Program-made: the position numbers and the translations under genes
Shown here: piece after piece, positions 31,332 through 45,896 of the stretch
Position numbering within the stretch: position 1 is the first letter of the stretch
Layout: each line of letters starts with the position of its first letter
Source of the DNA: Candidatus Omnitrophota bacterium
GTDB lineage: Bacteria; Omnitrophota; Gorgyraeia; Gygaellales; Profunditerraquicolaceae
Direction: 5' to 3'
Assembly (NCBI GenBank): GCA_030650425.1
Contig: JAUSED010000003.1
Coordinates: forward strand, 7,903 to 71,902
Length of the DNA stretch: 64,000 bases
Notes under the pieces: generated by a model
Seen by the model: the letters and a program-made list of their open reading frames with translations, nothing else
The model's database searches: none
What the model was told of the DNA's origin: nothing

Positions 31332-31336
31332 AAAAT

Positions 31337-31367: not shown

Positions 31368-31386
31368 TAGATTCTAGGAGGCCATT

Positions 31387-31827
31387 ATGGGACATACCTG
31401 TAATTCAGTTATAATTAACGCGCCCTATGATTTAGTTTTTGATATTTCCAATGATATCCCCCGCTGGACGGAATTATTCGGGAGTGAATACAAAAAAGCA
31501 GAAGTGGTGAAGAAGGAAGCAAATAAAATTACCTTCCGCCTGACTGATGACGAAGGTAAGTCTTGGCAGTCATGGAGATTACTTTTTAAGCAGAATAATT
31601 TTACTTACGCCGAAAGAGAAGAGCCGAAATTCCCTTTTCAATACATGAAAATCATCTGGCTTTATACGCTTAAACCGGAAGGGGTGGAATTAACCTGGAT
31701 CCAGCATTTTGCAATGGATGCAAAAGCCAAATTCAACGATGAGCAGGTCGAAGGTTTTATTAATAAGCATTCTAAGGATAATCTTTTAATTTTTAAGCGG
31801 GTAATCGAGCAGGCAGCAGGTAAGTAA
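31387..31827 (+). CDS. SRPBCC / Bet v1-fold polyketide cyclase-dehydratase-like protein.
   Basis: At 146 aa the pattern is typical of polyketide_cyc2 aromatase/cyclases (INAPYDLVFDISNDIPRWTELF ...). Confidence 0.55.
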   Translation: MGHTCNSVIINAPYDLVFDISNDIPRWTELFGSEYKKAEVVKKEANKITFRLTDDEGKSWQSWRLLFKQNNFTYAEREEPKFPFQYMKIIWLYTLKPEGVELTWIQHFAMDAKAKFNDEQVEGFINKHSKDNLLIFKRVIEQAAGK

Positions 31828-31842
31828 TTCTAGGAGGTTAAG

Positions 31843-32619
31843 ATGAATGAGCAATTAAAAGGTAAGGTTGCGATTGTGACGGGCGCCAGCCGCGGCATAG
31901 GTAAAGCCTTGGCTTCTACAGCAGCAAGTTTAGGGATTAATCTGGCGATAGCCGCGCGTCAAGAAGGCCCATTAAAAGAAACAGCCGAGGAGATCGCCAA
32001 GAAATATAAAGTTACTGTTTTAGCTATCCCTTGCGATGTCACCAAACTCGAAGATTTAGAGAATCTGGTGAATAAAACCAAGGAGAAATTCGGTAGAATT
32101 GATATTTTAATTAATAATGCCGGGGTTTCCTCGCAATATCCGTTTCAGGAGCAGCCGATTGAGGATTTCGAACGGCTGGCCCACACAAATTATTTGGGTT
32201 ATGTGCGCCTGATCCGCTTAGTGATCAACGATATGATTAAAAATAAAAGCGGCGCGATTATCAACATGGTCTCCGGTTCAACCCTCTGCGACCCGCTTCC
32301 ACGGAATTTTATTGTTTATAGCTCGCTTAAAGTCGGCCTGCGCGCATTTTCCAAGGGGCTTTTTTGGGAATTACGCGACCACGGAATAAAGGTAACCTCT
32401 ATATTACCCGGAGTGACAGATACGGATTTGACCGGGAAATTAAAAGAAATTACCGCAGATACCTCGCGGCTAATGACCACCGAGGCGATTGAAAACGCGG
32501 TAAGGTTTGCTTTAACTGTGCCGCAGAATGTTTGCCCGTTAGAAATAGCAGTAATTAACCAGCAGACGCCTTGGACTGCTCCGGTTATTCCATTTAAGCA
32601 GCAGCATCCGGGCAAGTGA
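31843..32619 (+). CDS. Short-chain dehydrogenase/reductase (candidate ketoreductase).
   Basis: Cofactor motif TGASRGIGKALA, NNAG, and a catalytic YSSLK-type tetrad region. Confidence 0.85.
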   Translation: MNEQLKGKVAIVTGASRGIGKALASTAASLGINLAIAARQEGPLKETAEEIAKKYKVTVLAIPCDVTKLEDLENLVNKTKEKFGRIDILINNAGVSSQYPFQEQPIEDFERLAHTNYLGYVRLIRLVINDMIKNKSGAIINMVSGSTLCDPLPRNFIVYSSLKVGLRAFSKGLFWELRDHGIKVTSILPGVTDTDLTGKLKEITADTSRLMTTEAIENAVRFALTVPQNVCPLEIAVINQQTPWTAPVIPFKQQHPGK

Positions 32620-32659
32620 CAAAATATTAAATACAGGTAGAGCAAGAAAGGGGATAAAG

Positions 32660-33268
32660 ATGAAAAAAATATTTTTGGTAATAGCGTTATTCTTCGGCGC
32701 AATGGGGATAAGCTTTGCCGCAGCTGAAAATTTGTTAGTCGACGATTTTGAAATTAGCGTATCCAGCGGCCCGAACGGCACAGTTGATTTTGGCGCGGGG
32801 AATGGCTCTACTGTAAACGTTACCGCAGCTGCCGAAGTTAAAAATACCGGGAAGCAGGCCCTTAAGGTAGATTTTGACGCGGTTACCGGCGGCTATATGT
32901 ACGTTGCCCGGGGAGAAGGATTGGACGCTCATAATACCGGATGGTTGGTTAGTCCCGAGGATATCAAGTGGCATGATTATAAGGCATTTTCTTTCTACAT
33001 GTATGGCTCGGATTCCAAAGGTAAGGTAGCTTTTGATATTAAAGATAATGCTAATGAAGTTTGGCGTTTTATCGTTGAGGATAATTTTGAGGGCTGGAGG
33101 CAGATTATTTGTAATTTCGAGCAATTTACCGCCAGAGGAGATTGGCAGCCGCAAAACGCCGATAATAACGCTGTGCTTAATTTTCCGGTGAGGTCTTTTC
33201 AATTCGAACCGCTTCCTCCGTTAAAAGGGACCATTTATCTTGATACTGTGGAATTAGTTAAAAAATGA
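32660..33268 (+). CDS. Secreted hypothetical protein with a beta-sandwich-like sequence.
   Basis: Signal peptide MKKIFLVIALFFGAMGISFAAA. No recognised motif. Confidence 0.45.
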   Translation: MKKIFLVIALFFGAMGISFAAAENLLVDDFEISVSSGPNGTVDFGAGNGSTVNVTAAAEVKNTGKQALKVDFDAVTGGYMYVARGEGLDAHNTGWLVSPEDIKWHDYKAFSFYMYGSDSKGKVAFDIKDNANEVWRFIVEDNFEGWRQIICNFEQFTARGDWQPQNADNNAVLNFPVRSFQFEPLPPLKGTIYLDTVELVKK

Positions 33269-34197
33269 TCATTGACGCGCATAGCCATTGGCTGCCGGAA
33301 GAAATAATTTCCAATGCCCATTTTTTTTCCAAAAGCTGGGGTGAGATCGAGCATCAGCTTGAGGCAATGGATGAAGCAGGGATTGATCAAGCCGTTCTCT
33401 CATATCCTACTTCCGACGCCCATCTTAAGTTAGGGAGTATTTCACTGGTTGCCCGGATTTTTAATGATAATGTAGCCAAAATCCTCAAAAAATATCCGGA
33501 CAGATTTATTGGCGCGGCAGTCCTGCCAGTGGACAACGGGAAGGATATGCAAGAGGAGGCTAAGCGGGCTATAGAAAAACTAGGGTTTAAGGCCTTCTCT
33601 TTGGCGAGCAGCTACAATGCTGTATATCTGGACGATCAGATCTTCTTACCTATATATAAGCTGGCGCAGGATGAGCATATACCGATTTTTGTGCATTCTC
33701 AGATTGTTAAGCCCATTGGCATCGAGCGCGTAAACGACCCGCTGCTTACCCCGGTAATCGAATATGTTTTTGATATGACGGTGTGTATTGGTAAGCTGCT
33801 GATGTCGGATATTTTACGCGATTATAAAACGAAATTTATCTTTGCATCTTTTGGCGGGGTAATTCCGTTTATAGCGCATAGGTTTGACGCGACCTACCAG
33901 ATGCTGCGGGGGATTAATTTTGTCAAAGACCTGCAAGCAATGCCTACAGAATTATTGAAGTATATTTATGTGGATACCAGCGGAGATAAGACCAAGGCGA
34001 ATTTTCAGGCAGCCTTGGAGTTACTCGGGCCAAAACATATTCTCTGGGGAAGCGATTGGCCAGCCAAAAAAGATATCGCCGCAGGAATGCAGGCGGTTAA
34101 AAATTTAGATATATCTAACGAAGACAAGCATAATATTTTAGGCGGTAATTTAGAACAGTTCTTGAACAGTAGGGGACATTTTCCGTCAGGGCTCTAA
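33265..34197 (+). CDS. Amidohydrolase-2 family enzyme (ACMSD-type metal-dependent decarboxylase/hydrolase).
   Basis: N-terminal MIIDAHSHWLPEE and a TIM-barrel hydrolase pattern. The last ~8 codons and the stop are encoded within a family-2 repeat element. Confidence 0.65.
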   Translation: MIIDAHSHWLPEEIISNAHFFSKSWGEIEHQLEAMDEAGIDQAVLSYPTSDAHLKLGSISLVARIFNDNVAKILKKYPDRFIGAAVLPVDNGKDMQEEAKRAIEKLGFKAFSLASSYNAVYLDDQIFLPIYKLAQDEHIPIFVHSQIVKPIGIERVNDPLLTPVIEYVFDMTVCIGKLLMSDILRDYKTKFIFASFGGVIPFIAHRFDATYQMLRGINFVKDLQAMPTELLKYIYVDTSGDKTKANFQAALELLGPKHILWGSDWPAKKDIAAGMQAVKNLDISNEDKHNILGGNLEQFLNSRGHFPSGL

Positions 34198-34997: not shown

Positions 34998-35747
34998 ATG
35001 CAAATGATTAAAGATGTGCATTTGACAGGAAAAGATTTGACGGAGATGGTGCAGCTGAGGCCGCAGGATGTCGCTAAATATGCGATTGTCCCCGGGCCAA
35101 GGGATAGGCTGGATGTCTTAATCAAAAAGATAGAAAATCCGGTGCGTAATTTTTCATTCATGGAGTACACGATGTATACCGGGACCTACCAAGGAATAAA
35201 AGTAACCGCAATTAACGGCGGCAGGTTCTCAACGGATACCTCGATTACCACCGAAGTAATCTGTAACGCGAAAATTGAAAACATCATTCGTGTAGGCACC
35301 GCCGGCAGTTTGGATGAAAATATAAAAGTAGGGGATTTGTTCGTGGTGGATGAAGTAATTCGCGGAGACGGGGTTACGCCATATTACGTGGATAAGAATT
35401 TTAAGACCGTAGCGGATAAGCAAATCGCCGATACCCTCTATGGAATCGGTAAAGATATGGGCTTAAACATCCATCGGGGTAAGGCTTGGACTACGGACGC
35501 GCTTTTACGCGAGACCAGAGAAATTGTCGAAGCCAAGCGTAAAGAGGGGGCAAGGGCGGTTGATATGGTCTCTTCAACACTGTTGACCATTGCCCAGACT
35601 TATAATATTAAAGCCGGCTCAATTTTAGCGGTCAGTGATAATGTTATTACGGGCGAAATGGGCTTTATGAACCCCCTTTATTATATGGCGGAGTCAAATA
35701 TTTTGAAAATAGCTTTAGAGGCAGTGGTAAAATTAGAGGGAAAATGA
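34998..35747 (+). CDS. Nucleoside phosphorylase, PNP/UDP family 1 (candidate 5'-deoxyadenosine/MTA phosphorylase).
   Basis: The phosphorylase fold has RVGTAGSL at the phosphate site. Context with the isomerase and aldolase genes downstream supports the call. Confidence 0.6.
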   Translation: MQMIKDVHLTGKDLTEMVQLRPQDVAKYAIVPGPRDRLDVLIKKIENPVRNFSFMEYTMYTGTYQGIKVTAINGGRFSTDTSITTEVICNAKIENIIRVGTAGSLDENIKVGDLFVVDEVIRGDGVTPYYVDKNFKTVADKQIADTLYGIGKDMGLNIHRGKAWTTDALLRETREIVEAKRKEGARAVDMVSSTLLTIAQTYNIKAGSILAVSDNVITGEMGFMNPLYYMAESNILKIALEAVVKLEGK

Positions 35748-36670
35748 AATTTTCTCCGTTATTTTGGCCGATTCAGTTCAAGAATGGCGTAATTTATATC
35801 CTTGATGAAACTCTCCTTCCGCATAAGCTTGCCTATATAAAGGCCAGAAACTATCAGCAGGCCTGCCGCGCGATCAAAGAGATGAAGACCCGCGCCGTTG
35901 GGCAAGTGCTCTTAGTGATGTATATTTTCCTGCAGTTAATTAAGCAGAAAAAGCAGAAAGATTTAGCCAAAGTAACCAAAGCCATTAACGCCACCCGGCC
36001 AACCTTATCTTTTAAATTTTTAACCGACATGGTTTTAGGTTGGGCTAAAGGCAAGGCGCCTTTAGAAAAATGTATTTTAGGATTTTTGGAAGGATTAAGA
36101 TGCAGCCGTATTCAACAGGCGGAAGAAGCAGCTAAGTTAATTAAAAACGGTGATTGCATACTGACGCATTGCAATGTCAGCGGCCTTATGCCTTTGATTG
36201 GAGAAATTTGCCGTAAGCAGGGGAAGAAGGTAAGTTTCTTTACCACCGAGACCCGTCCGTATCTGCAGGGTTCACGTTTAACTGCTTGGGAATTGCAAAA
36301 CGCGGGATTTGAGGTAACGATCATCACCGATGGGATGGTCGCCGCGGTTATGTCGCAGGGTAAAGTGAACAGAGTCATTGTCGGAGCGGATCATTTGGCG
36401 CGAAACGGCGATATTGCCAATAAAGTCGGCACCTACGCCATCGCGGTATTAGCCAGGCATTTCAAGCTTCCTTTTTATGTTTTATGCCCGCCGGCATCGC
36501 AATTAAAGAGCGGCAAAGAGATAAAGATAGAAATCCGTCCGGATAAAGAAATGTTGGAGTATCAGGGATTGAGGCTTGCGCCCAAAGGCGTAAAAGGGTA
36601 TTATCCGGCATTTGATATTACGCCTAGTAAATTAATTACCAAACATATACCTTTGGAGATCAAAAGATGA
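35744..36670 (+). CDS. eIF-2B-like (e2b2) sugar-phosphate isomerase; MtnA-like 5-(methylthio/deoxy)ribose-1-phosphate isomerase.
   Basis: VIVGADHLARNGDIANKVGTYAIAVLARHFKLPFYVL is the hallmark of the MtnA / R15P isomerase family. Confidence 0.7.
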   Translation: MKFSPLFWPIQFKNGVIYILDETLLPHKLAYIKARNYQQACRAIKEMKTRAVGQVLLVMYIFLQLIKQKKQKDLAKVTKAINATRPTLSFKFLTDMVLGWAKGKAPLEKCILGFLEGLRCSRIQQAEEAAKLIKNGDCILTHCNVSGLMPLIGEICRKQGKKVSFFTTETRPYLQGSRLTAWELQNAGFEVTIITDGMVAAVMSQGKVNRVIVGADHLARNGDIANKVGTYAIAVLARHFKLPFYVLCPPASQLKSGKEIKIEIRPDKEMLEYQGLRLAPKGVKGYYPAFDITPSKLITKHIPLEIKR

Positions 36671-37668
36671 TTTTCTGCAAAGAAAAGTCGATAAAAAAAG
36701 AAATTATCAAGATCGGCGCGCGGCTCTATCAAACCGGCTTGGCTGTGGCTAAGTCCGGGAATATCAGCAGCCGGCTTGACGATAAGAATATACTGATTAC
36801 CGCGACCGGGACATCTTTGGGGAATTTAAAATATCAGGATATCGTAAAAGTAAATTCGAATTCCTTAAGCTCGTCTGGCGTAAGTAAGCCAAGTTCAGAA
36901 TTGCCCTTGCACGCGTTAATCCATAAAAACTTTAGCGCTAAAACCATTCTCCACGCTCACCCTCCCTTAATCAACGGATATTTTGCGGTTTATTCCGAGA
37001 TCAAAGCGCTTACCTTTGAAACCAAGCTTTATCTGGGGAATGTTCCGGTTGTGCCTCAGGAGACTCCGGCGGTAACTAATCCGGAAGCAGTGGTTGAGGC
37101 CTTAAAATCCAGCAATCTGGTAGTCTTAAAAAATCATGGGGTAATCGCTGTCACGGATCAATTTTCTGACGGATTGAATCTAATCGAAGCCTTAGAAGAG
37201 GCAGTGCGGAGCGCGGCAGTAGCGAGAATTTTTAATAAAACAGCTCTGGACGATTTGGACAAGGCGTTCAAACAGGACATTACCCAGAATGCCGCGTTCC
37301 CGATGTTTTCCAAGGAGCATATTCAGGCAATCGTAGAGCTGGTAAATAAAGATGAATTTATCGCTCAAAAGGGAAAAGAACTGGATTTAACGGTGCAGCT
37401 GGCTATAAAATTAGACGAAAGTGATCAGGCCTATAAATTTAATTTTGAGCAAGGCAAAATCATTCGTTTAGATTCTGATATTGACGCGCCGTTTGTGATT
37501 TCTGCTCCGGGGCAGGTCTGGGAACTGGTATTTTTGGGGAAATTAGATTCATTTGTCGCGGTCACACAAGGAAAGATGAAATTAAAGGGTGATCTGGGTA
37601 AACTTTCTCGTTGGTATGTGCCTTTTACCCGTTTATTTGAATTATTCAGGCAGGTGAGGATAAAATAG
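36667..37668 (+). CDS. Class II aldolase/adducin-family protein (Ald2/MtnB-like) fused to a C-terminal SCP2-like domain.
   Basis: N-terminus GARLYQTGLAVAKSGNISSRL, and metal-binding HAHPP. The C-terminal ~110 aa (GKMKLKGDLGKLSRW) resembles an SCP2 sterol-carrier fold. Confidence 0.55.
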   Translation: MIFCKEKSIKKEIIKIGARLYQTGLAVAKSGNISSRLDDKNILITATGTSLGNLKYQDIVKVNSNSLSSSGVSKPSSELPLHALIHKNFSAKTILHAHPPLINGYFAVYSEIKALTFETKLYLGNVPVVPQETPAVTNPEAVVEALKSSNLVVLKNHGVIAVTDQFSDGLNLIEALEEAVRSAAVARIFNKTALDDLDKAFKQDITQNAAFPMFSKEHIQAIVELVNKDEFIAQKGKELDLTVQLAIKLDESDQAYKFNFEQGKIIRLDSDIDAPFVISAPGQVWELVFLGKLDSFVAVTQGKMKLKGDLGKLSRWYVPFTRLFELFRQVRIK

Positions 37669-37678
37669 GAGGTAGGAA

Positions 37679-38476
37679 ATGGATTGGGGAATGAAGAATC
37701 GCCTTAGCAGATTAATTCAACCGGATGGCCGCTGTTTTTTTATGCCTATCGATCACGGTTATTTTCAGGGCCCGACCAGCTGCTTGGAAAAACCCGCGCA
37801 AACAATTAAACCTTTGCTTCCTTATTTTGACGCGCTTTTTGTTACCCGCGGAGTTTTACGTTCGGTAATCGATCCGGGTTTCAATAAGCCAATCATTTTA
37901 AGGGTTTCCGGAGGAACGAGTATGGTGGGAAAAGATTTAGCCAATGAAGAGATCACCACTTCCATCGAGGAAATTATCCGGCTTAACGCGGCCGCGGTAG
38001 GCGTATCTATTTTTGTCGGGAGCGACTACGAAAAACAGACCTTGCTTAATCTGGCAAAATTAGTTAATGAATGCGGAAATTATGGTATTCCGGTAATGGC
38101 CGTTACTGCCGTGGGTAAGGAACTCGAAAAGAGGGATGCCCGCTATCTGGGTTTGTGCTGCCGGATTGCCGCGGAATTAGGCGCGGCCGTAGTCAAAACC
38201 TACTGGTGCGAGAAAGATTTTGATAAGGTAGTCAAGGGCTGCCCTGTTCCGGTGGTGATTGCCGGCGGCCCAAAATGCGCGTCCGAGGTTGATGTATTTA
38301 AATTTGTCTATGACGGAATGCAGAAGGGGGCGATCGGGATAAATTTAGGAAGGAATGTCTGGCAGAGCCCTCATCCGGAAGCTGTTGCAGCGGCGCTGCG
38401 GGCGATTATCCACGAAAAAGCGGATGTAAAAAAGGCGGGGAAAATTTTCGACGAAATTAAAAATAAAAATAAGTAA
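37679..38476 (+). CDS. Class I aldolase of the DhnA/FbaB (archaeal-type) family.
   Basis: TIM-barrel DeoC/FbaB-like pattern (FFMPIDHGYFQGP ... AVVKTYW). Confidence 0.5.
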   Translation: MDWGMKNRLSRLIQPDGRCFFMPIDHGYFQGPTSCLEKPAQTIKPLLPYFDALFVTRGVLRSVIDPGFNKPIILRVSGGTSMVGKDLANEEITTSIEEIIRLNAAAVGVSIFVGSDYEKQTLLNLAKLVNECGNYGIPVMAVTAVGKELEKRDARYLGLCCRIAAELGAAVVKTYWCEKDFDKVVKGCPVPVVIAGGPKCASEVDVFKFVYDGMQKGAIGINLGRNVWQSPHPEAVAAALRAIIHEKADVKKAGKIFDEIKNKNK

Positions 38477-38489
38477 GGAGTTCAGGGGT

Positions 38490-39509
38490 ATGCGCGTAGC
38501 GATGTATTACAATAACAGGGATGTTAGGATCGAAGACCTGCCTGAGCCTAAGATCAGCGACACCGAGTTATTGGTTAAGGTAAAGGCAAGCGGAATCTGC
38601 GGGAGCGATGTTTTGGAATGGTACAGGGTAAAAAAAGCGCCGCTTGTCCTCGGCCATGAGATCGCCGGAGAAATTGCTAAAATAGGCAAAGATGTAAAAG
38701 GCTTTCAAATCGGTGACCGGGTTTTTGTTTCGCACCATGTGCCCTGCAACACCTGTTACTATTGCCTAAATGGGAATCATACTGTTTGCGAAACTTTGCA
38801 TACGACCAATTATTATCCCGGGGGGTTTGCGGAATATATCAGAGTTCCGTCAATTAATGTTGAGCGGGGAGTATTTTTACTGCCGGATGAAATATCTTTT
38901 GAAGAGGGGACTTTTGTCGAACCGCTCGCCTGCGTTTTGCGCGGGCAGAGGATGATCAACATTAAACCCGGGCAAAGCATACTTATTTTAGGAGGAGGCA
39001 TTTCCGGATTATTGCACCTTTTGGCTGCGCGCGCTCAGGGAGCCGGCCGGATCATCGTAACGGATATCAGCGAATACCGCCTGAAAATGGCTAAAAGCCT
39101 GGGGGCTGATAGTGTGATTAATGCCAAAGAGGATGTTACGGTAATGCTGCGTAAGGCTAACCATAACCGTCTTAGTGATCAGGTGATTATTTGTACCGGA
39201 GCAACTTCGGCATTTATGCAATCTTTGCAATGCGTTGAGCGGGCAGGGACTATTTTGTGTTTCGCCGCAACTTTGCCGGGAGTAACTTTACCGGTTCCGG
39301 TGAATGATTTCTGGCGCAATAGCGTCAAGATTATGCATTCTTACGGCGCTGCGCCCGTAGATATAACGCAGGCAATAGAATTGTTACGCGCCAAAGTTGT
39401 GGAGGTCAAGAAGTTAATCACCCACTCTTTAGAGCTAGCGGAAGCAGCTAAAGGCTTTCAGCTGGCGGCCGAAGCAAAAGAATGCGTTAAGGTAATCCTT
39501 AAGCCATGA
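38490..39509 (+). CDS. Zinc-dependent medium-chain alcohol dehydrogenase.
   Basis: Catalytic Zn ligands GICGSDV and GHEIAGEI, structural-Zn cysteines CNTCYYCLNGNHTVC, and Rossmann motif LGGGISG. Confidence 0.9.
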   Translation: MRVAMYYNNRDVRIEDLPEPKISDTELLVKVKASGICGSDVLEWYRVKKAPLVLGHEIAGEIAKIGKDVKGFQIGDRVFVSHHVPCNTCYYCLNGNHTVCETLHTTNYYPGGFAEYIRVPSINVERGVFLLPDEISFEEGTFVEPLACVLRGQRMINIKPGQSILILGGGISGLLHLLAARAQGAGRIIVTDISEYRLKMAKSLGADSVINAKEDVTVMLRKANHNRLSDQVIICTGATSAFMQSLQCVERAGTILCFAATLPGVTLPVPVNDFWRNSVKIMHSYGAAPVDITQAIELLRAKVVEVKKLITHSLELAEAAKGFQLAAEAKECVKVILKP

Positions 39510-40987
39510 GTACGGATCTATTTATCAACGGTGAATTTAAAGAGGCAAAAGAAAAGCAGAATATCATTAATCCCTCTACCGGGAAGGCGATTGCGCAGGC
39601 AGGGGTTGCTTCTTTAAAAGATGTAGATTCAGCGATTGCCGGCGCCAGGGCCGCCTTTGATCAAGGAGAGTGGCCGCGATTATCATTAGCCGAACGCAAG
39701 GATTTTATTTCCAAGATTAGCCAAGGTATTTTAGATAACGCCGGAGAGCTGGCGGAGTTAGAGAGCCTAAACACCGGTAAGCCGATTAAAGAAACAACTT
39801 TTATGGATATTCCCTCGGCCGCGAAAACCTTTGAGTATGCCGCTAATAACTTTGAAAGATTCTTGAGCAGCGAGGAGTTGAATGTTTCAGGCAAAGCAAA
39901 GGCAGTTTTAAGGCGCGAGCCCGTCGGGGTCGTAGTTTTAATTGTCCCCTGGAATTATCCGCTTTTAATCGCCTGCTGGAAATTGGCGTCAGCTTTAGCC
40001 GCGGGAAATACGGTAATCCTTAAGCCCTCCAGCCTTACCCCGTTAAGCGCGCTTAAATTAGCCGGCATCGCGCATACTGCCGGTATTCCCGCCGGAGTGG
40101 TGAATGTGATCAATGGAAGCGGAGATAAAATCGGCGCAGCGCTTTGCGCGGATAGAAGAATAGATATGCTTTCTTTTACCGGTAGTAATGAGGTGGGGAG
40201 GAAAATTCTTGAATACTCTTCGCAGAATATAAAGAAATCGATTATGGAGTTGGGCGGAAAAAGCGCCAGTTTAATTTTTAACGATGCTGATTTAGATACC
40301 GCGGTGAACAGCTCGCTAGTATCAATATTTCTAAATCAGGGCCAGATGTGCACAGCGATGTCGCGCATCTTTGTTCAAGACAGCCTATATGATAAATTTG
40401 TAGTTAGTTTTGTAGAAAAGGCCAGGACCATAAAACTCGGTCCCGCGGATAGCCACGAAACTCAGATGGGCCCACTAATTAGCGAAAATCAGCGTAAAAG
40501 AGTGATTGCCTTTGTCGAAAAGGCTAAGGCCGAAGGCGCGCAGGTTTTGTGCGGCGGAAAAATCCCGCAAGATCCCGCGCTCAAAAATGGGTTTTTCTTT
40601 GAACCTACGGTGATCATTGATGTTAAGCCGCAAATGACTATATCCAAAGAAGAGGTTTTCGGCCCTGTTGTTACGATTAGCAGGTTTTCTAATAGCGATG
40701 AGGCAGTGAAGTTAGCTAACGCAAGCGATTTTGGATTAGCAGCCTGTATTTGGAGTAAAGATATAAATTTTGCTGAAAGAGTAGCCTGCCAGCTTAATAG
40801 CGGAACAGTCTGGATTAATACTTATGGCATGTTTTATAATCAGCTTCCTTACGGTGGATTCAAGCAGAGTGGTTTTGGTAAAGAATTAGGGAGGGAGGGG
40901 TTTCTCGAATATACCCGTCTTAAAAATATAATCATCGATCAGTCAGCCGATAGCAGGCCATTGGTCAATTACTGGTACGGTTTCTAA
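39506..40987 (+). CDS. NAD(P)-dependent aldehyde dehydrogenase.
   Basis: Catalytic Cys in LNQGQMCTAMSR, and Glu in IMELGGKSA. Confidence 0.9.
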   Translation: MSTDLFINGEFKEAKEKQNIINPSTGKAIAQAGVASLKDVDSAIAGARAAFDQGEWPRLSLAERKDFISKISQGILDNAGELAELESLNTGKPIKETTFMDIPSAAKTFEYAANNFERFLSSEELNVSGKAKAVLRREPVGVVVLIVPWNYPLLIACWKLASALAAGNTVILKPSSLTPLSALKLAGIAHTAGIPAGVVNVINGSGDKIGAALCADRRIDMLSFTGSNEVGRKILEYSSQNIKKSIMELGGKSASLIFNDADLDTAVNSSLVSIFLNQGQMCTAMSRIFVQDSLYDKFVVSFVEKARTIKLGPADSHETQMGPLISENQRKRVIAFVEKAKAEGAQVLCGGKIPQDPALKNGFFFEPTVIIDVKPQMTISKEEVFGPVVTISRFSNSDEAVKLANASDFGLAACIWSKDINFAERVACQLNSGTVWINTYGMFYNQLPYGGFKQSGFGKELGREGFLEYTRLKNIIIDQSADSRPLVNYWYGF

Positions 40988-44387: not shown

Positions 44388-45896
44388 ATGATGAATATAA
44401 TTGAAATATTAGATAAGCGGGCAAAGGATGCTCCGGATAAGCCGGCAGTAATTTTTAGAGATAAGGTTATTTCATTTGCTGACTTAGCGGATAAATCTTT
44501 ACGCCTAGAATCCGCGTTTAAAGAATTAGGCATAAATAAAGGCGACAAAATAGCCATCTATTTACCGAGTTGGCCGGAGTACATTTTTAGTTATTTGGCT
44601 ATCTGGCGTATCGGCGCGACAGCCGTACCTTTGGATTTTATGCTTACCGAAGATGAGTTAGTTTCCTGCCTTGCGCATTCCGAAGCCAAGATTTTAATTG
44701 CCAAGCCTAAGGCCAATCTTTCTTTAGCCGCGCTCAAACAAAGATGCCCGGGGCTAAAAGAAATCATTACCTGTCAGGATAAGGAAGAGGGATTTCTATT
44801 TTTTGATGAATGCCTGGAAAAATCCGGCGCAAGCGCTGTCAAAGCGGATACACAGGACAAAGATTACGCGATTATCTTCTATACCTCGGGGACAACCGGT
44901 AAGCCCAAGGGAGTGTTGATCAATTATTTGCAACTAAGCGCGCCGCCCAAGTCGATGGAATTTTTTGTGAACGCGGATTTAAGCGATAGAGACACTACTT
45001 TATGCGCTTTACCCTTCTCGCATTTGGGGGGCTTGATTTATATCCAAAATACAATAGTTTTTGGCTTAAAGTTAGTCTTAATGGAACGTTTTATTCCGTT
45101 AGAGTTCTTAAAGAATACCCAGCATCATAAGGTAAACTTTTTTTGGCTTGTTCCATCGATGTATTATGCCCTGCTGCAGCTAAAAGAATTTGAAACCTTT
45201 GACTTGGAGAGTCTGCGCTGGATAGTTACCTTTGGCGCCTCTAATTCTCCGGATGCCTTGCGCAGATTCCAACAATATTGTCCTAAAGCCAGCCTGTTGA
45301 ACGGCTGGGGCCTGACGGAGACCAACGCGCCGACAGTGGTTTCGGGGATGGGTTCCCAAAAAATCGAAAGCGTAGGCAGGCCTGCGCCATGGGTAGAGGT
45401 AAAGATTTTTAATGAAGAAGATAAAGAGGTTAGCATCGGGCTGGTAGGTGAGATCGTGGTTAAAGGTTGGGTAGTAACCGACGGGTATTATAAAGATGAT
45501 GCCTTGACCAATGAAACTTTAAGAAATGGATGGTTTCACACCGGAGATTTGGGAAAATTCGATACCGAAGGCGACCTTTATATCGTCGGCAGGAAGAAAG
45601 AGATGATTAAAGTCGGAGGAGAGATTGTTTTTGAGCCGGAGGTAGAATCGGTGATCTACCGGCATCCTGATATCGCTGAAGCCGCGGTGGTCGGGGTGGT
45701 AGATAAATTAAGGGGAGAGGTTCCTAAGGCTTGGGTGGTTTTAAAAGAAGGAAAGAATTTAAACGAAGAAGAACTGCGTTATTTCTTGCGGCAGCACTTG
45801 GCGCATTTTAAGATTCCGCATTATTTTGAATTTACCAATTCTCTTCCCAAAAATCGTACCGGAAAGATCGATAAAGAAAAATTAAGATGCTTGTAG
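44388..45896 (+). CDS. AMP-dependent synthetase/ligase (acyl-CoA synthetase family).
   Basis: AMP-binding motif IFYTSGTTGKPKGV, GWGLTETN, and a C-terminal GEIVFEPEVE...PKNRTGKIDK. Confidence 0.9.
   Translation: MMNIIEILDKRAKDAPDKPAVIFRDKVISFADLADKSLRLESAFKELGINKGDKIAIYLPSWPEYIFSYLAIWRIGATAVPLDFMLTEDELVSCLAHSEAKILIAKPKANLSLAALKQRCPGLKEIITCQDKEEGFLFFDECLEKSGASAVKADTQDKDYAIIFYTSGTTGKPKGVLINYLQLSAPPKSMEFFVNADLSDRDTTLCALPFSHLGGLIYIQNTIVFGLKLVLMERFIPLEFLKNTQHHKVNFFWLVPSMYYALLQLKEFETFDLESLRWIVTFGASNSPDALRRFQQYCPKASLLNGWGLTETNAPTVVSGMGSQKIESVGRPAPWVEVKIFNEEDKEVSIGLVGEIVVKGWVVTDGYYKDDALTNETLRNGWFHTGDLGKFDTEGDLYIVGRKKEMIKVGGEIVFEPEVESVIYRHPDIAEAAVVGVVDKLRGEVPKAWVVLKEGKNLNEEELRYFLRQHLAHFKIPHYFEFTNSLPKNRTGKIDKEKLRCL

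What the first reader, a model, noticed from the sequence alone, without database searches (positions are those of the whole stretch)
34998..40987. Compact DHAP-shunt-like cluster for salvage of 5'-deoxyadenosine / methylthioadenosine, extended with aldehyde-handling enzymes
The run is nucleoside phosphorylase, then an MtnA-like 5-deoxy(or methylthio)ribose-1-P isomerase, then a class II aldolase. This is exactly the three-step route that converts radical-SAM by-products 5'-dAdo and MTA into DHAP plus acetaldehyde or (methylthio)acetaldehyde. It is followed by a second (class I, DhnA-type) aldolase, a Zn-ADH and an ALDH, which could reduce or oxidise the released aldehyde. The class II aldolase carries an unusual C-terminal SCP2-like domain. 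The cluster lies directly downstream of a locus encoding a B12-radical SAM enzyme, and rlmN is nearby, so the cell plausibly has the radical-SAM burden that would need it.
Basis: partly seen in the sequence, partly recalled or inferred. Interest (0 to 1): 0.6.

Follow-up and report, generated by a model that had tools for sequence, protein, structure and literature searches.

The report
Radical-SAM-linked deoxynucleoside-to-DHAP operon, Omnitrophota
Six tightly packed genes in an uncultured Omnitrophota bacterium encode an unusual version of the pathway that turns the adenosine-derived leftovers of radical-SAM enzymes into a glycolytic sugar phosphate plus a small acid, and this module is kept next to a vitamin-B12 radical-SAM enzyme and lipid-handling genes in at least two bacterial phyla, so it is either a dedicated recycling line or part of an undescribed lipid pathway.

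Summary
The six ORFs are real, co-directional, and overlapping or at most 13 bp apart. The window is from a Candidatus Omnitrophota MAG.

[quoted passage not shown] Three corrections apply.
- The phosphorylase is a divergent DeoD/uridine-phosphorylase-type purine enzyme, not MtnP.
- The "DhnA aldolase" is an LsrF-type thiolase homologue, and the Zn-ADH is a polyol/threonine-dehydrogenase type. These two form an accessory pair, present in 12 of 80 related loci. I infer that they oxidise 5-deoxyribulose-1-P to the LsrF substrate and split it into DHAP plus acetyl-CoA.
- The module is not free-standing. PNP, MtnA, aldolase-SCP2, ALDH, a fatty-acyl-type AMP ligase and a B12 radical-SAM enzyme stay together in shuffled order across Omnitrophota lineages. 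They also form one 11-gene operon in Candidatus Desulfofervidus auxilii. Their neighbours are ketosynthase pairs or hydrophobe-transport genes.

Best reading (0.45): dedicated salvage of 5'-deoxyadenosine made by the clustered radical-SAM enzyme. Main rival (0.3): the radical-SAM enzyme makes a 5'-adenosylated hydrophobic intermediate that this module trims to a two-carbon-extended acid. I class it as a new variant of a known kind.

The parts
34998..35747 (+). Divergent DeoD/uridine-phosphorylase-type (hexameric NP-I family) purine nucleoside phosphorylase. It is the inferred first step: nucleoside + Pi gives adenine + (5-substituted) ribose-1-P.
   Evidence: - Pfam PNP_UDP_1, 114.8 bits.
- Best NCBIfam matches are uridine phosphorylase (107.9 bits) and DeoD (94.4 bits), all far below their cut-offs. 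MTAP scores 16.8 bits.
- Best PDB matches are 3qpb (uridine phosphorylase) and 2ac7 (Bacillus cereus PNP).
- Residue mapping: the phosphate residues G33, R37 and the R87 equivalent are kept. The purine Ser-Asp pair is kept as S213-D214. The uridine-phosphorylase-specific insertion is absent. The ribose Glu181 is replaced (motif DMV, V191).
- Identity is 77-91% across 66 Omnitrophota loci.
- Only 23 clusters at the 50% identity level have E<=1e-30 among 1.84 billion representatives.
35744..36670 (+). Short-form MtnA-like aldose-1-P to ketose-1-P isomerase (eIF2B-related family).
   Evidence: - Pfam IF-2B, 180.3 bits.
- NCBIfam MtnA models score 239.3 (cut-off 271) and 228.2 (cut-off 279). The subfamily model TIGR00524 scores 194.7, above its cut-off of 185.85. 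The R15P isomerase model scores only 110.3 (cut-off 314).
- The top PDB hits are all MtnA (1t9k, 176 bits). The THCN Cys and GAD Asp motifs are present. There is a 5-aa deletion after THCN.
36667..37668 (+). Class II (metal-dependent) aldolase domain (aa 12-181 = 36700-37209) fused to a C-terminal SCP2 lipid-binding-fold domain (aa ~207-333 = 37285-37665). It is inferred to cleave the ketose-1-P into DHAP plus an aldehyde.
   Evidence: - Pfam Aldolase_II 113.4 bits and SCP2 26.9 bits.
- E78, H96, H98 and H157 are invariant, which I map from memory of the E. coli enzyme (not aligned here) to the FucA metal ligands E73/H92/H94/H155. The Ser/Asn/Thr positions I take to be the phosphate-binding residues (same basis) are conserved.
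- The full-length model has pLDDT 83.4 with a disordered linker at 190-208.
- Foldseek matches are YgbL/OtnC, FucA and DrdA 6btd at 24-29% identity.
- The SCP2 domain model has pLDDT 90.7 and TM 0.83 to 2cx7.
- The fusion is found in at least 182 GTDB species representatives, all Omnitrophota. It is also found in Candidatus Desulfofervidus auxilii.
37679..38476 (+). LsrF-type class I (Schiff-base) enzyme, a homologue of 3-hydroxy-5-phosphonooxypentane-2,4-dione thiolase. It is an accessory gene, always paired with the next gene.
   Evidence: - NCBIfam NF006081 scores 356.4 bits, above the cut-off of 297. The ADH-synthase models score only 192-197 bits.
- E. coli LsrF 3gkf matches at E 2.9e-74, with 44.7% identity over 253 aa. 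Lys203 corresponds to K173, which is conserved.
- Present in 12 of 80 related loci, in three different positions within the block.
- Also found away from the PNP genes in L082 and L083.
38490..39509 (+). NAD-type zinc dehydrogenase of the polyol/threonine-dehydrogenase clade. It is an accessory partner of the LsrF homologue and is inferred to be a 5-deoxyribulose-1-P 4-dehydrogenase.
   Evidence: - Pfam ADH_N plus ADH_zinc_N.
- Best NCBIfam matches are Tdh, IolM, galactitol-1-P 5-dehydrogenase and idonate 5-dehydrogenase, all below their cut-offs.
- Best PDB matches are sorbitol dehydrogenase, ketose reductase, Tdh, arabinitol-4-dehydrogenase and xylitol dehydrogenase.
- The Cys37/His56/Glu57/Glu144 'EPLAC' zinc site and the 'VTD' motif were read from the sequence.
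- It immediately follows the LsrF homologue in all 10 species-representative loci (L002-L081) where the contig allows the test.
39506..40987 (+). Non-acylating NAD(P)+ aldehyde dehydrogenase (ALDH1/2/BADH type). It is a core partner of the aldolase and is inferred to oxidise the released aldehyde to the acid.
   Evidence: - Pfam Aldedh, 567.8 bits.
- No NCBIfam equivalog cut-off is reached.
- PDB neighbours are hydroxymuconic-semialdehyde, betaine-aldehyde, retinal, phenylacetaldehyde and mitochondrial aldehyde dehydrogenases.
- It lies within 3.5 kb downstream of the aldolase in 63 of 64 loci. It also follows the aldolase in Desulfofervidus.
28770..30284 (+). B12-binding radical-SAM enzyme (BchE/HpnJ-like). 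It is the conserved partner of the module and the presumed source of the 5'-deoxyadenosyl compound.
   Evidence: - Pfam Radical_SAM plus B12-binding.
- NCBIfam BchE 207 bits and HpnJ 152 bits, both below their cut-offs.
- About 81% identity in 37 loci.
- Homologues at 35-66% identity lie directly beside or inside the PNP/MtnA/aldolase run in other lineages: L093, L096, L119, L137, L140, L144 and L176.
44388..45896 (+). Fatty-acyl/aryl-type AMP-forming CoA ligase. It is a conserved member of the gene set and is inferred to activate the acid made by ALDH.
   Evidence: - Pfam AMP-binding plus AMP-binding_C.
- The best NCBIfam match is the long-chain-fatty-acid-CoA ligase model NF004837 at 431 bits (cut-off 476).
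- It directly follows ALDH in most Omnitrophota loci.
- It precedes PNP or the radical-SAM gene in other lineages. It is in the Desulfofervidus operon.
45887..46933 (+). RlmN (radical-SAM rRNA/tRNA methyltransferase), a recurrent downstream neighbour.
   Evidence: - Pfam RlmN_N plus Radical_SAM.
- It is adjacent in most Omnitrophota loci.
- It sits next to PNP/aldolase pairs in the distant loci L089 and L091.
22712..34197 (+). Rest of the extended gene set that travels with the module. Members are AccA (22712), PadR (23656), p93 (24239), an ApbA/PanE-like reductase (24530), p198 (25539), two beta-ketoacyl synthases (26132, 27473), a cyclase PF04199 (30534), an SRPBCC protein (31387), a FabG-like SDR (31843), a CBM_11 protein (32660) and Amidohydro_2 (33265).
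   Evidence: - Pfam.
- The same genes are found in other orders relative to PNP/MtnA/aldolase/ALDH/AMP ligase in L100, L103, L109, L113, L126, L142, L144, L148 and L153.

Best explanation
The six genes are an Omnitrophota-type variant of the DHAP shunt. This variant is hard-wired to a cobalamin radical-SAM enzyme.

Proposed steps (all inferred from enzyme family and gene context; none shown experimentally):
1. 5'-deoxyadenosine, and possibly methylthioadenosine, released by the co-clustered B12 radical-SAM enzyme and by RlmN is phosphorolysed by the divergent DeoD-type phosphorylase to adenine plus 5-deoxyribose-1-P.
2. The MtnA-like isomerase makes 5-deoxyribulose-1-P.
3. The class II aldolase-SCP2 protein cleaves it to DHAP plus acetaldehyde, or (methylthio)acetaldehyde. 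DHAP can enter the lower glycolysis that is reported in all 176 complete Omnitrophota genomes of one survey.
4. The adjacent ALDH oxidises the aldehyde to the acid. The nearby AMP ligase probably converts the acid to a CoA thioester.

In this genome and about 15% of relatives, an accessory pair provides a second exit. The polyol-type Zn dehydrogenase oxidises C4 of 5-deoxyribulose-1-P. The product is 3-hydroxy-2,4-dioxopentyl phosphate, which is exactly the substrate of LsrF. The LsrF homologue cleaves it with CoA to DHAP plus acetyl-CoA. This avoids free acetaldehyde and allows ATP gain through acetate kinase.
For: - Enzyme families and order match the known shunt: phosphorylase, MtnA-like isomerase, class II aldolase (pathway definitions in PMC6079011, and PMC10986504).
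- Catalytic residues are conserved in the isomerase, aldolase, LsrF homologue and PNP.
- The module is near-universal in 80 Omnitrophota species loci.
- It is always close to radical-SAM genes, even after rearrangement. Examples are B12-rSAM-PNP-MtnA in L093, rSAM-PNP in L096/L119/L137/L176, MtnA-rSAM-aldolase in L140, and PNP/aldolase-RlmN in L089 and L091, which lack the lipid genes.
- ALDH follows the aldolase in 63 of 64 loci, which argues for an aldehyde product and therefore for an aldolase rather than an MtnB-type dehydratase.
- LsrF needs a methyl ketone, which only a 5-deoxy sugar supplies. Its partner dehydrogenase is of the secondary-alcohol polyol/threonine type.
- The LsrF/ADH pair has inserted at three different places inside this block.
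- Omnitrophota are reported as fermentative, with universal lower glycolysis, acetate kinase in most, and no aerobic oxidase (bioRxiv 10.64898/2026.06.07.730766).
Against: - No enzyme reaches an equivalog cut-off for MtnP, MtnA or a named aldolase.
- The phosphorylase is not MtnP-like, and its ribose pocket is remodelled: Glu181 is lost and Phe159/Tyr160 are replaced by Leu/Leu.
- A canonical MTAP is reported in 70-99% of class Gorgyraeia genomes, so a second enzyme for plain 5'-dAdo/MTA would be partly redundant.
- Plain salvage gives no role to the strongly conserved SCP2 domain.
- Plain salvage does not explain why the ligase is of the fatty-acyl type rather than an acetyl-CoA synthetase.
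- Plain salvage does not explain why five 'salvage' genes sit in one operon with a single radical-SAM gene and a hydrophobe-transport cassette in Desulfofervidus.
- The LsrF homologue is only 44.7% identical to E. coli LsrF.
- No paper in the searched library links LsrF to 5-deoxyribulose.
Confidence: 0.45

Rival explanations
1. Adduct-processing pathway. The B12 radical-SAM enzyme attaches the 5'-deoxyadenosyl group to a hydrophobic substrate such as a lipid, olefin or polyketide intermediate.

The module would then work as a linear pathway:
1. The phosphorylase removes adenine.
2. The MtnA-like enzyme isomerises the 5-alkyl-ribose-1-P.
3. The aldolase holds the tail in its SCP2 domain and releases DHAP plus R-CH2-CHO.
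4. ALDH makes R-CH2-COOH.
5. The fatty-acyl-type AMP ligase activates the acid, either as a ketosynthase starter or for degradation.

The net result is an oxygen-independent two-carbon carboxymethyl extension.
For: - It gives every conserved gene a role: the SCP2 domain, the FACS-like ligase, and ALDH next to the aldolase.
- The radical-SAM gene is interleaved with PNP, MtnA and the aldolase in several orders.
- The 11-gene Desulfofervidus operon has an MMPL/HAE3 transporter, a LolA-like DUF1329 protein and a DUF1302 protein. This cassette type handles hydrophobic compounds (PMC6394551; bioRxiv 10.1101/2020.07.04.188060).
- Ketosynthase pair, ketoreductase, cyclase and PlsC genes are present in Omnitrophota.
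- The phosphorylase belongs to a small subfamily with a remodelled ribose pocket and a hydrophobic residue at position 17.
- From my own knowledge, there is precedent: both known adenosylating radical-SAM enzymes (HpnH, MqnE) are followed by a PNP_UDP_1-family base-removing enzyme (HpnG, MqnB/MTAN).
Against: - The radical-SAM enzyme resembles BchE/HpnJ and B12 methyltransferases. No HpnH or MqnE model appears among its hits.
- From my own knowledge, no B12-domain radical-SAM enzyme is known to adenosylate a substrate.
- The PNP/aldolase pair also occurs next to RlmN without a ligase, ALDH, B12-rSAM or lipid genes (L089, L091).
- The aldolase lacks the SCP2 domain in L091 and L092.
- HpnG similarity is weak: 48 bits against a cut-off of 187.
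Confidence: 0.3
2. General purine-nucleoside (ribose) catabolism for carbon and energy. Adenosine or inosine gives ribose-1-P, then ribulose-1-P, then DHAP plus glycolaldehyde, then glycolate. This would be a kinase-free relative of the haloarchaeal non-carboxylating pentose bisphosphate pathway.
For: - The phosphorylase groups with DeoD/uridine-phosphorylase-type enzymes and keeps the purine Asp.
- The haloarchaeal pathway also uses a 'uridine phosphorylase'-annotated enzyme, an eIF2B-family isomerase and a FucA-like aldolase (PMC9700705).
- Omnitrophota are reported as host-dependent, with universal lower glycolysis but patchy hexose entry.
- PNP is very highly conserved, at about 85% identity.
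Against: - The isomerase scores as MtnA, not as R15P isomerase.
- There is no ribose-1-P kinase or RuBP phosphatase in the window.
- The Ru1P-aldolase model scores 60 against a cut-off of 300.
- This reading does not explain the persistent linkage to radical-SAM genes, the LsrF methyl-ketone chemistry, the SCP2 domain or the fatty-acyl-type ligase.
Confidence: 0.1
3. Methionine salvage. In this reading the class II aldolase-fold protein acts as an MtnB-type dehydratase. A class IV aminotransferase regenerates methionine.
For: - MtnB belongs to the same fold family. The MtnB models give weak hits of 52-63 bits.
- A class IV aminotransferase sits next to MtnA or the aldolase in several lineages: L020, L064, L091 and L092.
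- A HAD hydrolase is present in L085.
Against: - MtnB TIGR03328 scores 52 against a cut-off of 137, and the aldolase-type models score higher.
- No MtnC, MtnD, MtnW or MtnX is present in the window.
- ALDH is coupled to the aldolase in 63 of 64 loci.
- Omnitrophota are reported to lack aerobic oxidases, so an O2-dependent MtnD route is unlikely.
Confidence: 0.04
4. The LsrF homologue serves autoinducer-2 (AI-2) degradation, as in the enterobacterial lsr operon. Its position in the cluster would then be coincidental.
For: It passes the NCBIfam LsrF equivalog cut-off, and the Schiff-base Lys is conserved.
Against: - No LsrK, LsrG, LsrB or LsrACD is present in the 64-kb window.
- The gene is always paired with a polyol-type dehydrogenase, not with lsr genes.
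- It has inserted repeatedly inside the same block.
Confidence: 0.02

Closest known systems
DHAP shunt (MtnP, or MtnN plus MtnK; MtnA; Ald2) of Rhodospirillum rubrum and extraintestinal pathogenic E. coli, and the DrdK/DrdI/DrdA 5-deoxyribose pathway of Bacillus thuringiensis
   Same: - It has the same three-step logic and the same fold families for the isomerase (MtnA/eIF2B-related) and the aldolase (class II, FucA-like).
- The products are DHAP plus an aldehyde.
- A phosphorylase-initiated variant is already known (PMC6079011; PMC10986504).
   Different: - The phosphorylase is a divergent DeoD/uridine-phosphorylase-type enzyme, not MtnP.
- The isomerase is a short form, below the MtnA equivalog cut-offs.
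- The aldolase is only 24-25% identical to DrdA and carries an SCP2 domain.
- A dedicated ALDH and an AMP ligase follow the aldolase.
- An accessory LsrF/dehydrogenase pair is present.
- The whole module is embedded with a B12 radical-SAM enzyme and lipid-type genes. The known shunts are stand-alone three-gene clusters that use host housekeeping dehydrogenases for the aldehyde.
LsrF, 3-hydroxy-5-phosphonooxypentane-2,4-dione thiolase of the E. coli/Salmonella AI-2 (lsr) system
   Same: - It passes the NCBIfam equivalog cut-off and is 44.7% identical.
- It has the same class I aldolase fold, and the Schiff-base lysine is conserved.
- The product is DHAP.
   Different: - There is no lsr kinase, isomerase or transporter.
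- It lacks the N-terminal ~31 residues of the E. coli protein.
- It is always paired with a polyol-type Zn dehydrogenase.
- The substrate is inferred to come from oxidation of 5-deoxyribulose-1-P rather than from AI-2.
Threonine dehydrogenase plus 2-amino-3-ketobutyrate CoA ligase (Tdh/Kbl). This is a mechanistic analogy taken from my own knowledge.
   Same: A Zn dehydrogenase of the same clade oxidises a CH3-CHOH- group to a methyl ketone. The ketone is then cleaved with CoA to acetyl-CoA plus the remaining fragment.
   Different: The second enzyme here is a Schiff-base LsrF-type enzyme, not a PLP enzyme. The substrate is a sugar phosphate.
Non-carboxylating pentose bisphosphate pathway of halophilic archaea (PMC9700705)
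   Same: It uses a nucleoside phosphorylase annotated as uridine phosphorylase, an eIF2B-family isomerase, and a FucA-like aldolase that gives DHAP plus an aldehyde.
   Different: - That pathway needs a ribose-1-P kinase, an R15P isomerase and a RuBP phosphatase.
- None of these three features is met here.
Adenosylation-then-base-removal pathways: HpnH/HpnG (hopanoid side chain) and MqnE/MqnB (futalosine route to menaquinone). Taken from my own knowledge.
   Same: A radical-SAM gene is directly followed by a PNP_UDP_1-family gene. The context is hydrophobic, and an HAE3/HpnN-related transporter is present.
   Different: - The radical-SAM enzyme here is BchE/HpnJ-like with a B12 domain, not HpnH- or MqnE-like.
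- The downstream steps (isomerase, aldolase, ALDH, ligase) have no counterpart in those pathways.
Fluoroacetate pathway of Streptomyces cattleya (5'-FDA phosphorylase, isomerase, aldolase, aldehyde dehydrogenase)
   Same: It has the same four-step logic, including the aldehyde dehydrogenase (described in PMC6079011 and PMC6302742). A CrcB fluoride channel gene lies just upstream in this window.
   Different: - No fluorinase (SAM hydroxide adenosyltransferase family) is present in the window.
- CrcB-DUF190 is a sporadic insertion, seen in about 12 of 80 loci.
- No fluoride riboswitch was found.

Membership tests
DHAP shunt / 5-deoxyribose disposal pathway | The first enzyme is an MtnP (MTAP-family) phosphorylase, or MtnN nucleosidase plus MtnK kinase | tested here: not met
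   TIGR01694 MTAP scores 16.8 bits against a cut-off of 274.85, and the MTA/SAH nucleosidase models are all below their cut-offs. A DeoD/uridine-phosphorylase-type phosphorylase stands in its place.
DHAP shunt / 5-deoxyribose disposal pathway | MtnA/DrdI-type 5-(methylthio/deoxy)ribose-1-P isomerase | tested here: inconclusive
   - NF004326 scores 239.3 against 271, and TIGR00512 scores 228.2 against 279, so both are below cut-off.
- TIGR00524 (MtnA/eIF-2B-related subfamily) scores 194.7 against 185.85, so it passes.
- The catalytic Cys and Asp motifs are present, and the top PDB hits are all MtnA.
DHAP shunt / 5-deoxyribose disposal pathway | Class II metal-dependent aldolase (Ald2/DrdA) adjacent to the isomerase | tested here: inconclusive
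   - The Pfam Aldolase_II cut-off is passed.
- The metal ligands and phosphate site are invariant.
- The gene is adjacent to the isomerase.
- Identity to DrdA 6btd is only 24-25%, and no named aldolase equivalog cut-off is reached.
DHAP shunt / 5-deoxyribose disposal pathway | Conversion of 5'-deoxyadenosine or MTA to DHAP plus acetaldehyde or (methylthio)acetaldehyde | not testable with these tools
   This needs enzyme assays.
LsrF (EC 2.3.1.245) | Sequence membership (NCBIfam equivalog NF006081) and the Schiff-base lysine | tested here: met
   The score is 356.4 bits against a cut-off of 297. K173 aligns with E. coli Lys203 and is conserved in 17 sequences (window plus relatives).
LsrF (EC 2.3.1.245) | Lsr context: LsrK kinase, LsrG isomerase and the LsrACDB transporter | tested here: not met
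   None was found among the ORFs of at least 90 aa that were scanned, which is nearly all of them in the window, or in the related loci.
LsrF (EC 2.3.1.245) | CoA-dependent cleavage of P-HPD to DHAP plus acetyl-CoA | not testable with these tools
   This needs an enzyme assay.
Non-carboxylating pentose bisphosphate pathway | Ribose-1,5-bisphosphate isomerase | tested here: not met
   TIGR00511 scores 110.3 against a cut-off of 314.1. PDB R15P isomerases score 89 bits against 176 for MtnA.
Non-carboxylating pentose bisphosphate pathway | Ribose-1-P kinase and RuBP phosphatase encoded with the isomerase | tested here: not met
   No sugar kinase or HAD phosphatase is present in the window. A HAD gene is seen only in one relative, L085.
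Non-carboxylating pentose bisphosphate pathway | Ribulose-1-P aldolase equivalog | tested here: not met
   NF053831 scores 60.1 against a cut-off of 300.
Methionine salvage pathway | MtnB dehydratase, plus MtnC/MtnD or MtnW/MtnX | tested here: not met
   TIGR03328 scores 52.1 against a cut-off of 137.05. No MtnC, MtnD, MtnW or MtnX family is present in the window. The rest of the genome could not be read.
SCP2 (sterol carrier protein 2) domain | Pfam membership and the alpha/beta SCP2 fold | tested here: met
   PF02036 scores 26.9 against a gathering score of 21.3. The model has pLDDT 90.7, and Foldseek gives 2cx7 at TM 0.83 and E 2.8e-8, followed by UbiJ-SCP2 and the alkylsulfatase C-terminal domains.
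Radical-SAM adenosylation systems (HpnH/HpnG, MqnE/MqnB) | Radical-SAM enzyme of the HpnH or MqnE family | tested here: not met
   The best hits are BchE, HpnJ and B12 methyltransferases. No HpnH or MqnE model appears among the 17 hits.
Radical-SAM adenosylation systems (HpnH/HpnG, MqnE/MqnB) | PNP_UDP_1-family base-removing enzyme encoded next to the radical-SAM gene | tested here: inconclusive
   - The family-level feature and adjacency are met in L093, L096, L119, L137 and L176.
- HpnG TIGR03468 scores only 48.1 against 187.1, and futalosine hydrolase scores 26.8 against 124.7.
Fluorometabolite (5'-FDA) pathway | Fluorinase (5'-fluoro-5'-deoxyadenosine synthase) | tested here: not met
   No such family was found among the window ORFs scanned with Pfam.

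The most novel reading that the evidence does not exclude
The module is not a waste-recycling line. It would be the working half of a new oxygen-independent C2-extension chemistry.

In this reading, a B12-domain radical-SAM enzyme adenosylates a hydrophobic substrate. The PNP, MtnA-like enzyme, aldolase-SCP2 and ALDH then strip the nucleoside down to a -CH2-COOH group, releasing adenine and DHAP. The fatty-acyl-type ligase hands the new acid to ketosynthases (Omnitrophota) or to degradation or export (Desulfofervidus). This is a futalosine/hopanoid-like logic extended by an aldolase step.

Within the same picture, the LsrF plus polyol-dehydrogenase pair would be the first physiological role for an LsrF homologue outside AI-2 quenching: 5-deoxyribulose-1-P to DHAP plus acetyl-CoA.
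Probability: 0.3. Interest if true: 0.9.

Novelty: new variant of a known kind. Interest (0 to 1): 0.65.

Why it matters
- **By-product disposal.** Radical-SAM enzymes are inhibited by their by-product 5'-deoxyadenosine. How anaerobes with many such enzymes dispose of it is only partly known. Here a complete disposal route is genetically welded to one B12 radical-SAM enzyme in two phyla (Omnitrophota and Thermodesulfobacteriota). Its enzyme variants are a new phosphorylase subfamily, an SCP2-fused aldolase and a dedicated ALDH plus ligase. I found none of these described in the papers I searched or read.
- **A testable new reaction.** The accessory pair suggests a 5-deoxyribulose-1-P 4-dehydrogenase feeding an LsrF-type thiolase. 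This would yield acetyl-CoA instead of toxic acetaldehyde. It would also explain why LsrF homologues occur in bacteria without an AI-2 uptake system.
- **The alternative reading.** If the adduct-processing reading is right, this would be a new way to functionalise hydrophobic molecules without oxygen.
- **A biochemical handle.** Either way, the cluster marks a conserved, uncharacterised lipid or polyketide-type pathway in a largely uncultured, host-dependent phylum.

Tried and rejected
- **Riboswitch search.** Rfam at gathering threshold over the whole window, and at E-value threshold over 28-47.5 kb, found only two tRNAs and one chance-level folP hit. No SAM, SAH or fluoride riboswitch is available to name a ligand.
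- **Promoter and terminator scan.** The scan of 28-47.5 kb found no more sites than in shuffled sequence. It does not define the operon ends.
- **Fluorometabolite idea.** This was prompted by CrcB-DUF190 lying just upstream of a PNP-isomerase-aldolase-ALDH run. It was rejected because there is no fluorinase, CrcB is a sporadic insertion, and there is no fluoride riboswitch.
- **AI-2/Lsr reading of the LsrF homologue.** Rejected for lack of any lsr partner.
- **5'-substituent inferred from the phosphorylase pocket.**
  - The canonical His4 position is Met17, and Met64 maps to Arg76.
  - The wider subfamily alignment shows a conserved His8 nine residues upstream that could replace His4. Arg76 is not conserved outside close relatives.
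  - I therefore withdrew both the 'hydrophobic 5' pocket' argument and the 'anionic 5' substituent (SAH/AMP)' argument.
- **SAH-phosphorolysis route to P-DPD/P-HPD.** Considered and kept only as a remote idea.
- **Contexts of two distant PNP relatives.** P0250 sits with an Opp-type transporter and P0248 has nothing relevant nearby. Both were uninformative.
- **AlphaFold-database fold search.** This was not available.
- **Literature searches.** Searches for LsrF with 5-deoxyribulose or deoxyadenosine, for SCP2 with class II aldolase, and for Omnitrophota with methylthioadenosine found no description of this cluster.
- **Rest of the source genome.** It could not be read, so the presence of a canonical MtnP/MtnN or of mtnB/C/D in this organism is unknown. 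It rests only on a survey of other Omnitrophota.

Full report
**Observation**

Three junctions overlap by 4 bp (PNP/isomerase, isomerase/aldolase, ADH/ALDH). The other two gaps are 10 and 13 bp. Translational coupling of the whole run is therefore likely, which I infer from the sequence. GC content is unremarkable for the window.

Pfam assigns the six proteins as follows:
- PNP_UDP_1
- IF-2B
- Aldolase_II plus SCP2
- the DeoC/LacD class I aldolase fold
- a two-domain Zn-ADH
- Aldedh

**Family placement**

- **Phosphorylase.** It scores best against uridine phosphorylase and DeoD purine phosphorylase models but is far below every cut-off. It has essentially no MTAP signal: 16.8 bits against 274.85. 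Its PDB neighbours are uridine and DeoD-type purine phosphorylases at roughly 25-30% identity.
- **Isomerase.** It is clearly nearer to MtnA than to ribose-1,5-bisphosphate isomerase: 239 versus 110 bits in NCBIfam, and 176 versus 89 bits against PDB. It keeps the THCN cysteine and the GAD aspartate. It is a short form with a 5-residue deletion after the cysteine, and it misses the MtnA equivalog cut-offs.
- **Aldolase domain.** E78, H96, H98 and H157 are invariant. From memory of the E. coli enzyme (no FucA alignment was made here) I map them to the FucA metal ligands E73, H92, H94 and H155, with the presumed Ser/Asn/Thr phosphate site also conserved. It is about equally distant (24-29% identity) from YgbL/OtnC, FucA and the 5-deoxyribulose-1-P aldolase DrdA.
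- **Fourth protein.** It is not a generic DhnA aldolase. It passes the NCBIfam equivalog cut-off for LsrF, the 3-hydroxy-5-phosphonooxypentane-2,4-dione thiolase (356 against 297). It is 44.7% identical to E. coli LsrF, and the Schiff-base lysine is conserved.
- **Zn-ADH.** It carries the Cys/His/Glu/Glu zinc site of the polyol-dehydrogenase clade. Its nearest structures are sorbitol, threonine, arabinitol and xylitol dehydrogenases.
- **ALDH.** It is a generic non-acylating ALDH1/2/BADH-type enzyme.

**Source and conservation**

The aldolase-SCP2 protein is 100% identical to a protein of a Candidatus Omnitrophota MAG. A genome scan found at least 182 species representatives carrying the fusion, all Omnitrophota. 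A few of those records are labelled Planctomycetales.

In the 80 loci kept, the counts are as follows:
- MtnA is adjacent to the aldolase in 56 of 64 loci with enough upstream sequence.
- PNP is within 1.5 kb in 57 of those 64.
- ALDH is within 3.5 kb in 63 of 64 loci with enough downstream sequence.
- In most loci ALDH is followed directly by a roughly 500-aa AMP-forming ligase and then by RlmN.

Mean identity to the window is 85% for PNP, 72% for MtnA, 68% for the aldolase and ALDH, and 61% for RlmN.

**The LsrF/dehydrogenase pair**

These two genes are accessory. They occur in 12 of the 80 loci. The dehydrogenase immediately follows the LsrF homologue in all 10 of these species-representative loci where the contig allows the test. 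The pair sits in three different positions: between the aldolase and ALDH, after ALDH, or after the ligase. It also occurs without the PNP genes:
- in a Firestonebacteria-labelled MAG, beside a convergent rlmN;
- beside an AMP ligase and an MMPL/DUF1329/DUF1302 cassette.

Chemically, 5-deoxy-D-ribulose-1-phosphate is CH3-CHOH-CHOH-CO-CH2OP. Oxidising its C4 hydroxyl gives CH3-CO-CHOH-CO-CH2OP, which is the LsrF substrate. A threonine-dehydrogenase-like enzyme acts on exactly this CH3-CHOH- motif. The sequence would parallel Tdh/Kbl. This is an inference from structures and established enzymology, not a result. No paper in the searched library links LsrF with 5-deoxyribulose.

The proposed route would give acetyl-CoA and NADH instead of free acetaldehyde. 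That matters for fermentative bacteria that have acetate kinase. E. coli cannot ferment 5-deoxyribose, for redox and ATP reasons.

**The phosphorylase subfamily**

Only 23 clusters at the 50% identity level reach E<=1e-30 among 1.84 billion representatives. Members share these motifs:
- an N-terminal xxH(L/I)T motif
- WTTDA(L/V)LRET
- DM(V/I/A)(S/T)S, in which the ribose-binding Glu181 of E. coli PNP is lost
- AVSDNL, in which the purine-protonating Asp is kept

The uridine-phosphorylase-specific insertion is absent, so this is a purine-type enzyme with a remodelled ribose pocket. My first inferences about the 5' pocket (His4 to Met17, Met64 to Arg76) did not survive the wider alignment, and I do not rely on them.

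**The SCP2 fusion**

The full-length model has two confident domains joined by a disordered linker. The isolated C-terminal domain models at pLDDT 90.7. It matches bacterial and archaeal SCP2 proteins, UbiJ-SCP2 and the alkylsulfatase C-terminal domains. The domain is almost invariant within Omnitrophota. It is also present in the Desulfofervidus homologue and probably in L089. It is absent from the 189-197-aa aldolases of L091 and L092.

**The wider gene set (the main new result)**

A metagenome scan seeded with distant PNP relatives, combined with ORF comparison and Pfam, shows that the module belongs to a larger set of genes. The set stays together while its order changes.

- **Window type:** AccA-PadR-p93-ApbA-like reductase-p198-KS-KS-B12 rSAM-cyclase-SRPBCC-SDR-CBM11-Amidohydro_2-(CrcB-DUF190)-PNP-MtnA-aldolase/SCP2-(LsrF-ADH)-ALDH-(PlsC-PurU-DUF748-p218)-ligase-RlmN.
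- **A second Omnitrophota lineage:** ligase and PNP sit at the opposite end, giving ligase-PNP-p93-ApbA-p198-KS-KS-cyclase-SRPBCC-SDR (L103, L109, L113, L126). In the genome-derived loci that appear to belong to the same lineage (L020, L064, L074), the corresponding run continues B12 rSAM-Amidohydro_2-class IV aminotransferase-MtnA-aldolase/SCP2-ALDH. Joining these two halves into one cluster is my inference. It rests on a 62%-identical PNP in Candidatus Susulua stagnicola.
- **Other lineages:**
  - PadR-ligase-PNP-MtnA-(IF-2B-like fragment)-aldolase/SCP2-ALDH-B12 rSAM-p93-ApbA-KS (L144, L148, L153)
  - AccA-PadR-methyltransferase-ligase-B12 rSAM-PNP-MtnA-x-aldolase-ALDH-MMPL-LolA-like-DUF1302 (L119)
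  - ligase-PNP-MtnA-B12 rSAM-x-aldolase (L140)
- **Candidatus Desulfofervidus auxilii (Thermodesulfobacteriota):** one 11-gene co-directional operon reads MMPL-B12 rSAM-PNP-MtnA-IF-2B-like-aldolase/SCP2-ALDH-DUF1329-DUF1302-ligase-unknown. There are no ketosynthases within 10 kb.

The MMPL(HAE3)/DUF1329/DUF1302 cassette is the type implicated in handling monoterpenes and fatty esters. It is related to the hopanoid transporter HpnN.

In still more distant contigs, the PNP/aldolase pair lies next to rlmN without any of the lipid genes (L089, L091). B12 rSAM-PNP-MtnA occurs on its own in L093.

**Interpretation**

The biochemical logic is well supported by family, conserved residues and gene order. 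I put it at about 0.7. The logic is:
1. Phosphorolysis of a purine nucleoside.
2. Aldose-to-ketose isomerisation of the sugar-1-phosphate.
3. Metal-dependent retro-aldol cleavage to DHAP plus an aldehyde.
4. Oxidation of the aldehyde to an acid.
5. Probable thioesterification of the acid.

What the 5' substituent is cannot be settled by sequence.

- **Reading A (0.45).** The substrate is free 5'-deoxyadenosine, perhaps also MTA, from the clustered radical-SAM enzymes. The points in its favour:
  - Radical-SAM genes are the only neighbours common to all contexts, including the RlmN-only ones.
  - LsrF needs a 5-deoxy methyl ketone.
  - The enzyme types are those of the known shunt.
- **Reading B (0.3).** The B12 radical-SAM enzyme makes a 5'-adenosyl adduct of a hydrophobic molecule, and the module trims it. 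This reading explains the SCP2 domain, the fatty-acyl-type ligase, the transporter cassette, the interleaving of the radical-SAM gene with the module, and the apparent redundancy with the canonical MTAP reported for most Gorgyraeia. It requires an activity not known for B12-domain radical-SAM enzymes. The enzyme here resembles BchE/HpnJ, not HpnH or MqnE.
- **Minor readings.** Plain ribose catabolism, methionine salvage, AI-2 degradation and a fluorometabolite route each fail defining features. These are listed in the membership table.

**Comparison with what is known, and novelty**

The nearest described system is the DHAP shunt, also known as the Drd pathway. This locus shares its logic and two of its three fold families. 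It differs in these respects:
- the phosphorylase family
- the SCP2 fusion
- the dedicated ALDH and ligase
- the accessory LsrF/dehydrogenase pair
- its fixed association with a B12 radical-SAM enzyme and lipid-type genes across two phyla

I therefore class it as a new variant of a known kind. There is a substantial chance that it is something categorically new.

**Limits**

All functions are inferred. The rest of the source genome could not be inspected. The taxonomy of most metagenomic loci is unknown. The Pfam, homologue-search and contig look-up quotas were exhausted before the unknown ORFs of the extended cluster (p93, p198, the 153-aa IF-2B-like protein, the 367-aa Desulfofervidus protein) could be studied further.

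Noticed in passing
window 22712-34197, and loci L103, L126, L144, L119: The upstream genes look like an uncharacterised type II PKS/FAS-like lipid or polyketide system. Members are AccA, PadR, a 93-aa protein, an ApbA/PanE-like reductase, a 198-aa internally duplicated Cys-rich protein, two ketosynthases (a KS/CLF-like pair), the B12 radical-SAM enzyme, a PF04199 cyclase, an SRPBCC protein and a FabG-like SDR. The second ketosynthase is 80-90% identical across Omnitrophota. The product is unknown.
   Followed up: partly
L176 6230-19329 (Candidatus Desulfofervidus auxilii, JAJSZS010000002.1): This is an 11-gene operon in a different phylum: MMPL-B12 rSAM-PNP-MtnA-IF-2B-like(152 aa)-aldolase/SCP2-ALDH-DUF1329-DUF1302-AMP ligase-367 aa unknown. 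It contains the same module without ketosynthases.
   Followed up: partly
L096 5346-5807; L119 9631-10089; L144 9643-10185; L176 11621-12079: A small (~150-180 aa) protein with weak similarity to the C-terminal half of IF-2B/MtnA lies between MtnA and the aldolase in several lineages. It is absent from the window lineage. Its function is unknown.
   Followed up: partly
L020 8192-9004; L064 8246-9052; L091 4559-5359; L092 6375-7190: A class IV aminotransferase (BCAT/aminodeoxychorismate-lyase-like) recurs next to MtnA or the aldolase in lineages where PNP is not adjacent. Neither main reading explains it.
   Followed up: partly
window 34217-34979: A CrcB fluoride channel gene plus DUF190 are inserted between Amidohydro_2 and PNP. 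They are present in only about 12 of 80 related loci. No fluoride riboswitch is detected upstream.
   Followed up: yes
window 31338-31368: A perfect 14-bp-stem palindromic hairpin (AGGGACCGTTTCCT...AGGAAACGGTCCCT) lies in the 55-bp gap between the cyclase and SRPBCC genes. It could be a terminator or attenuator inside the long co-directional gene run.
   Followed up: no
window 40992-44320: PlsC-PurU-DUF748-p218 is a lineage-specific insertion between ALDH and the AMP ligase, seen in about 14 of 80 loci. In other genomes ALDH is followed directly by the ligase.
   Followed up: partly
window 33265-34197: An Amidohydro_2 (ACMSD/decarboxylase-lactonase family) gene almost always precedes PNP, or precedes the aminotransferase in the other lineage. 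In that lineage a diverged copy is 38-41% identical. No function is assigned.
   Followed up: no
window 32660-33268; L083 7302-7910; L137 3588-4187: A secreted 202-aa CBM_11-like protein travels with the cluster, including next to the LsrF/ADH pair in L083. It is odd company for cytosolic enzymes.
   Followed up: no
L089 8008-9405; L092 4790-6316: Two unrelated proteins of 465 and 508 aa with no Pfam match lie between the PNP/aldolase genes and rlmN or the aminotransferase in distant lineages. One has a signal-peptide-like N-terminus and the other a membrane-like N-terminus.
   Followed up: no
window 18459-18962 (-), 50208-50290 (-), 50359-50431 (+): An IS200-like Y1 transposase gene and two tRNA genes are present. 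They are unrelated to the finding.
   Followed up: no
window 4394-9075: In an ATP synthase operon, the beta-like subunit carries a V/A-type C-terminal domain (PF22919). This fits reports of unusual ATPases in Omnitrophota.
   Followed up: no
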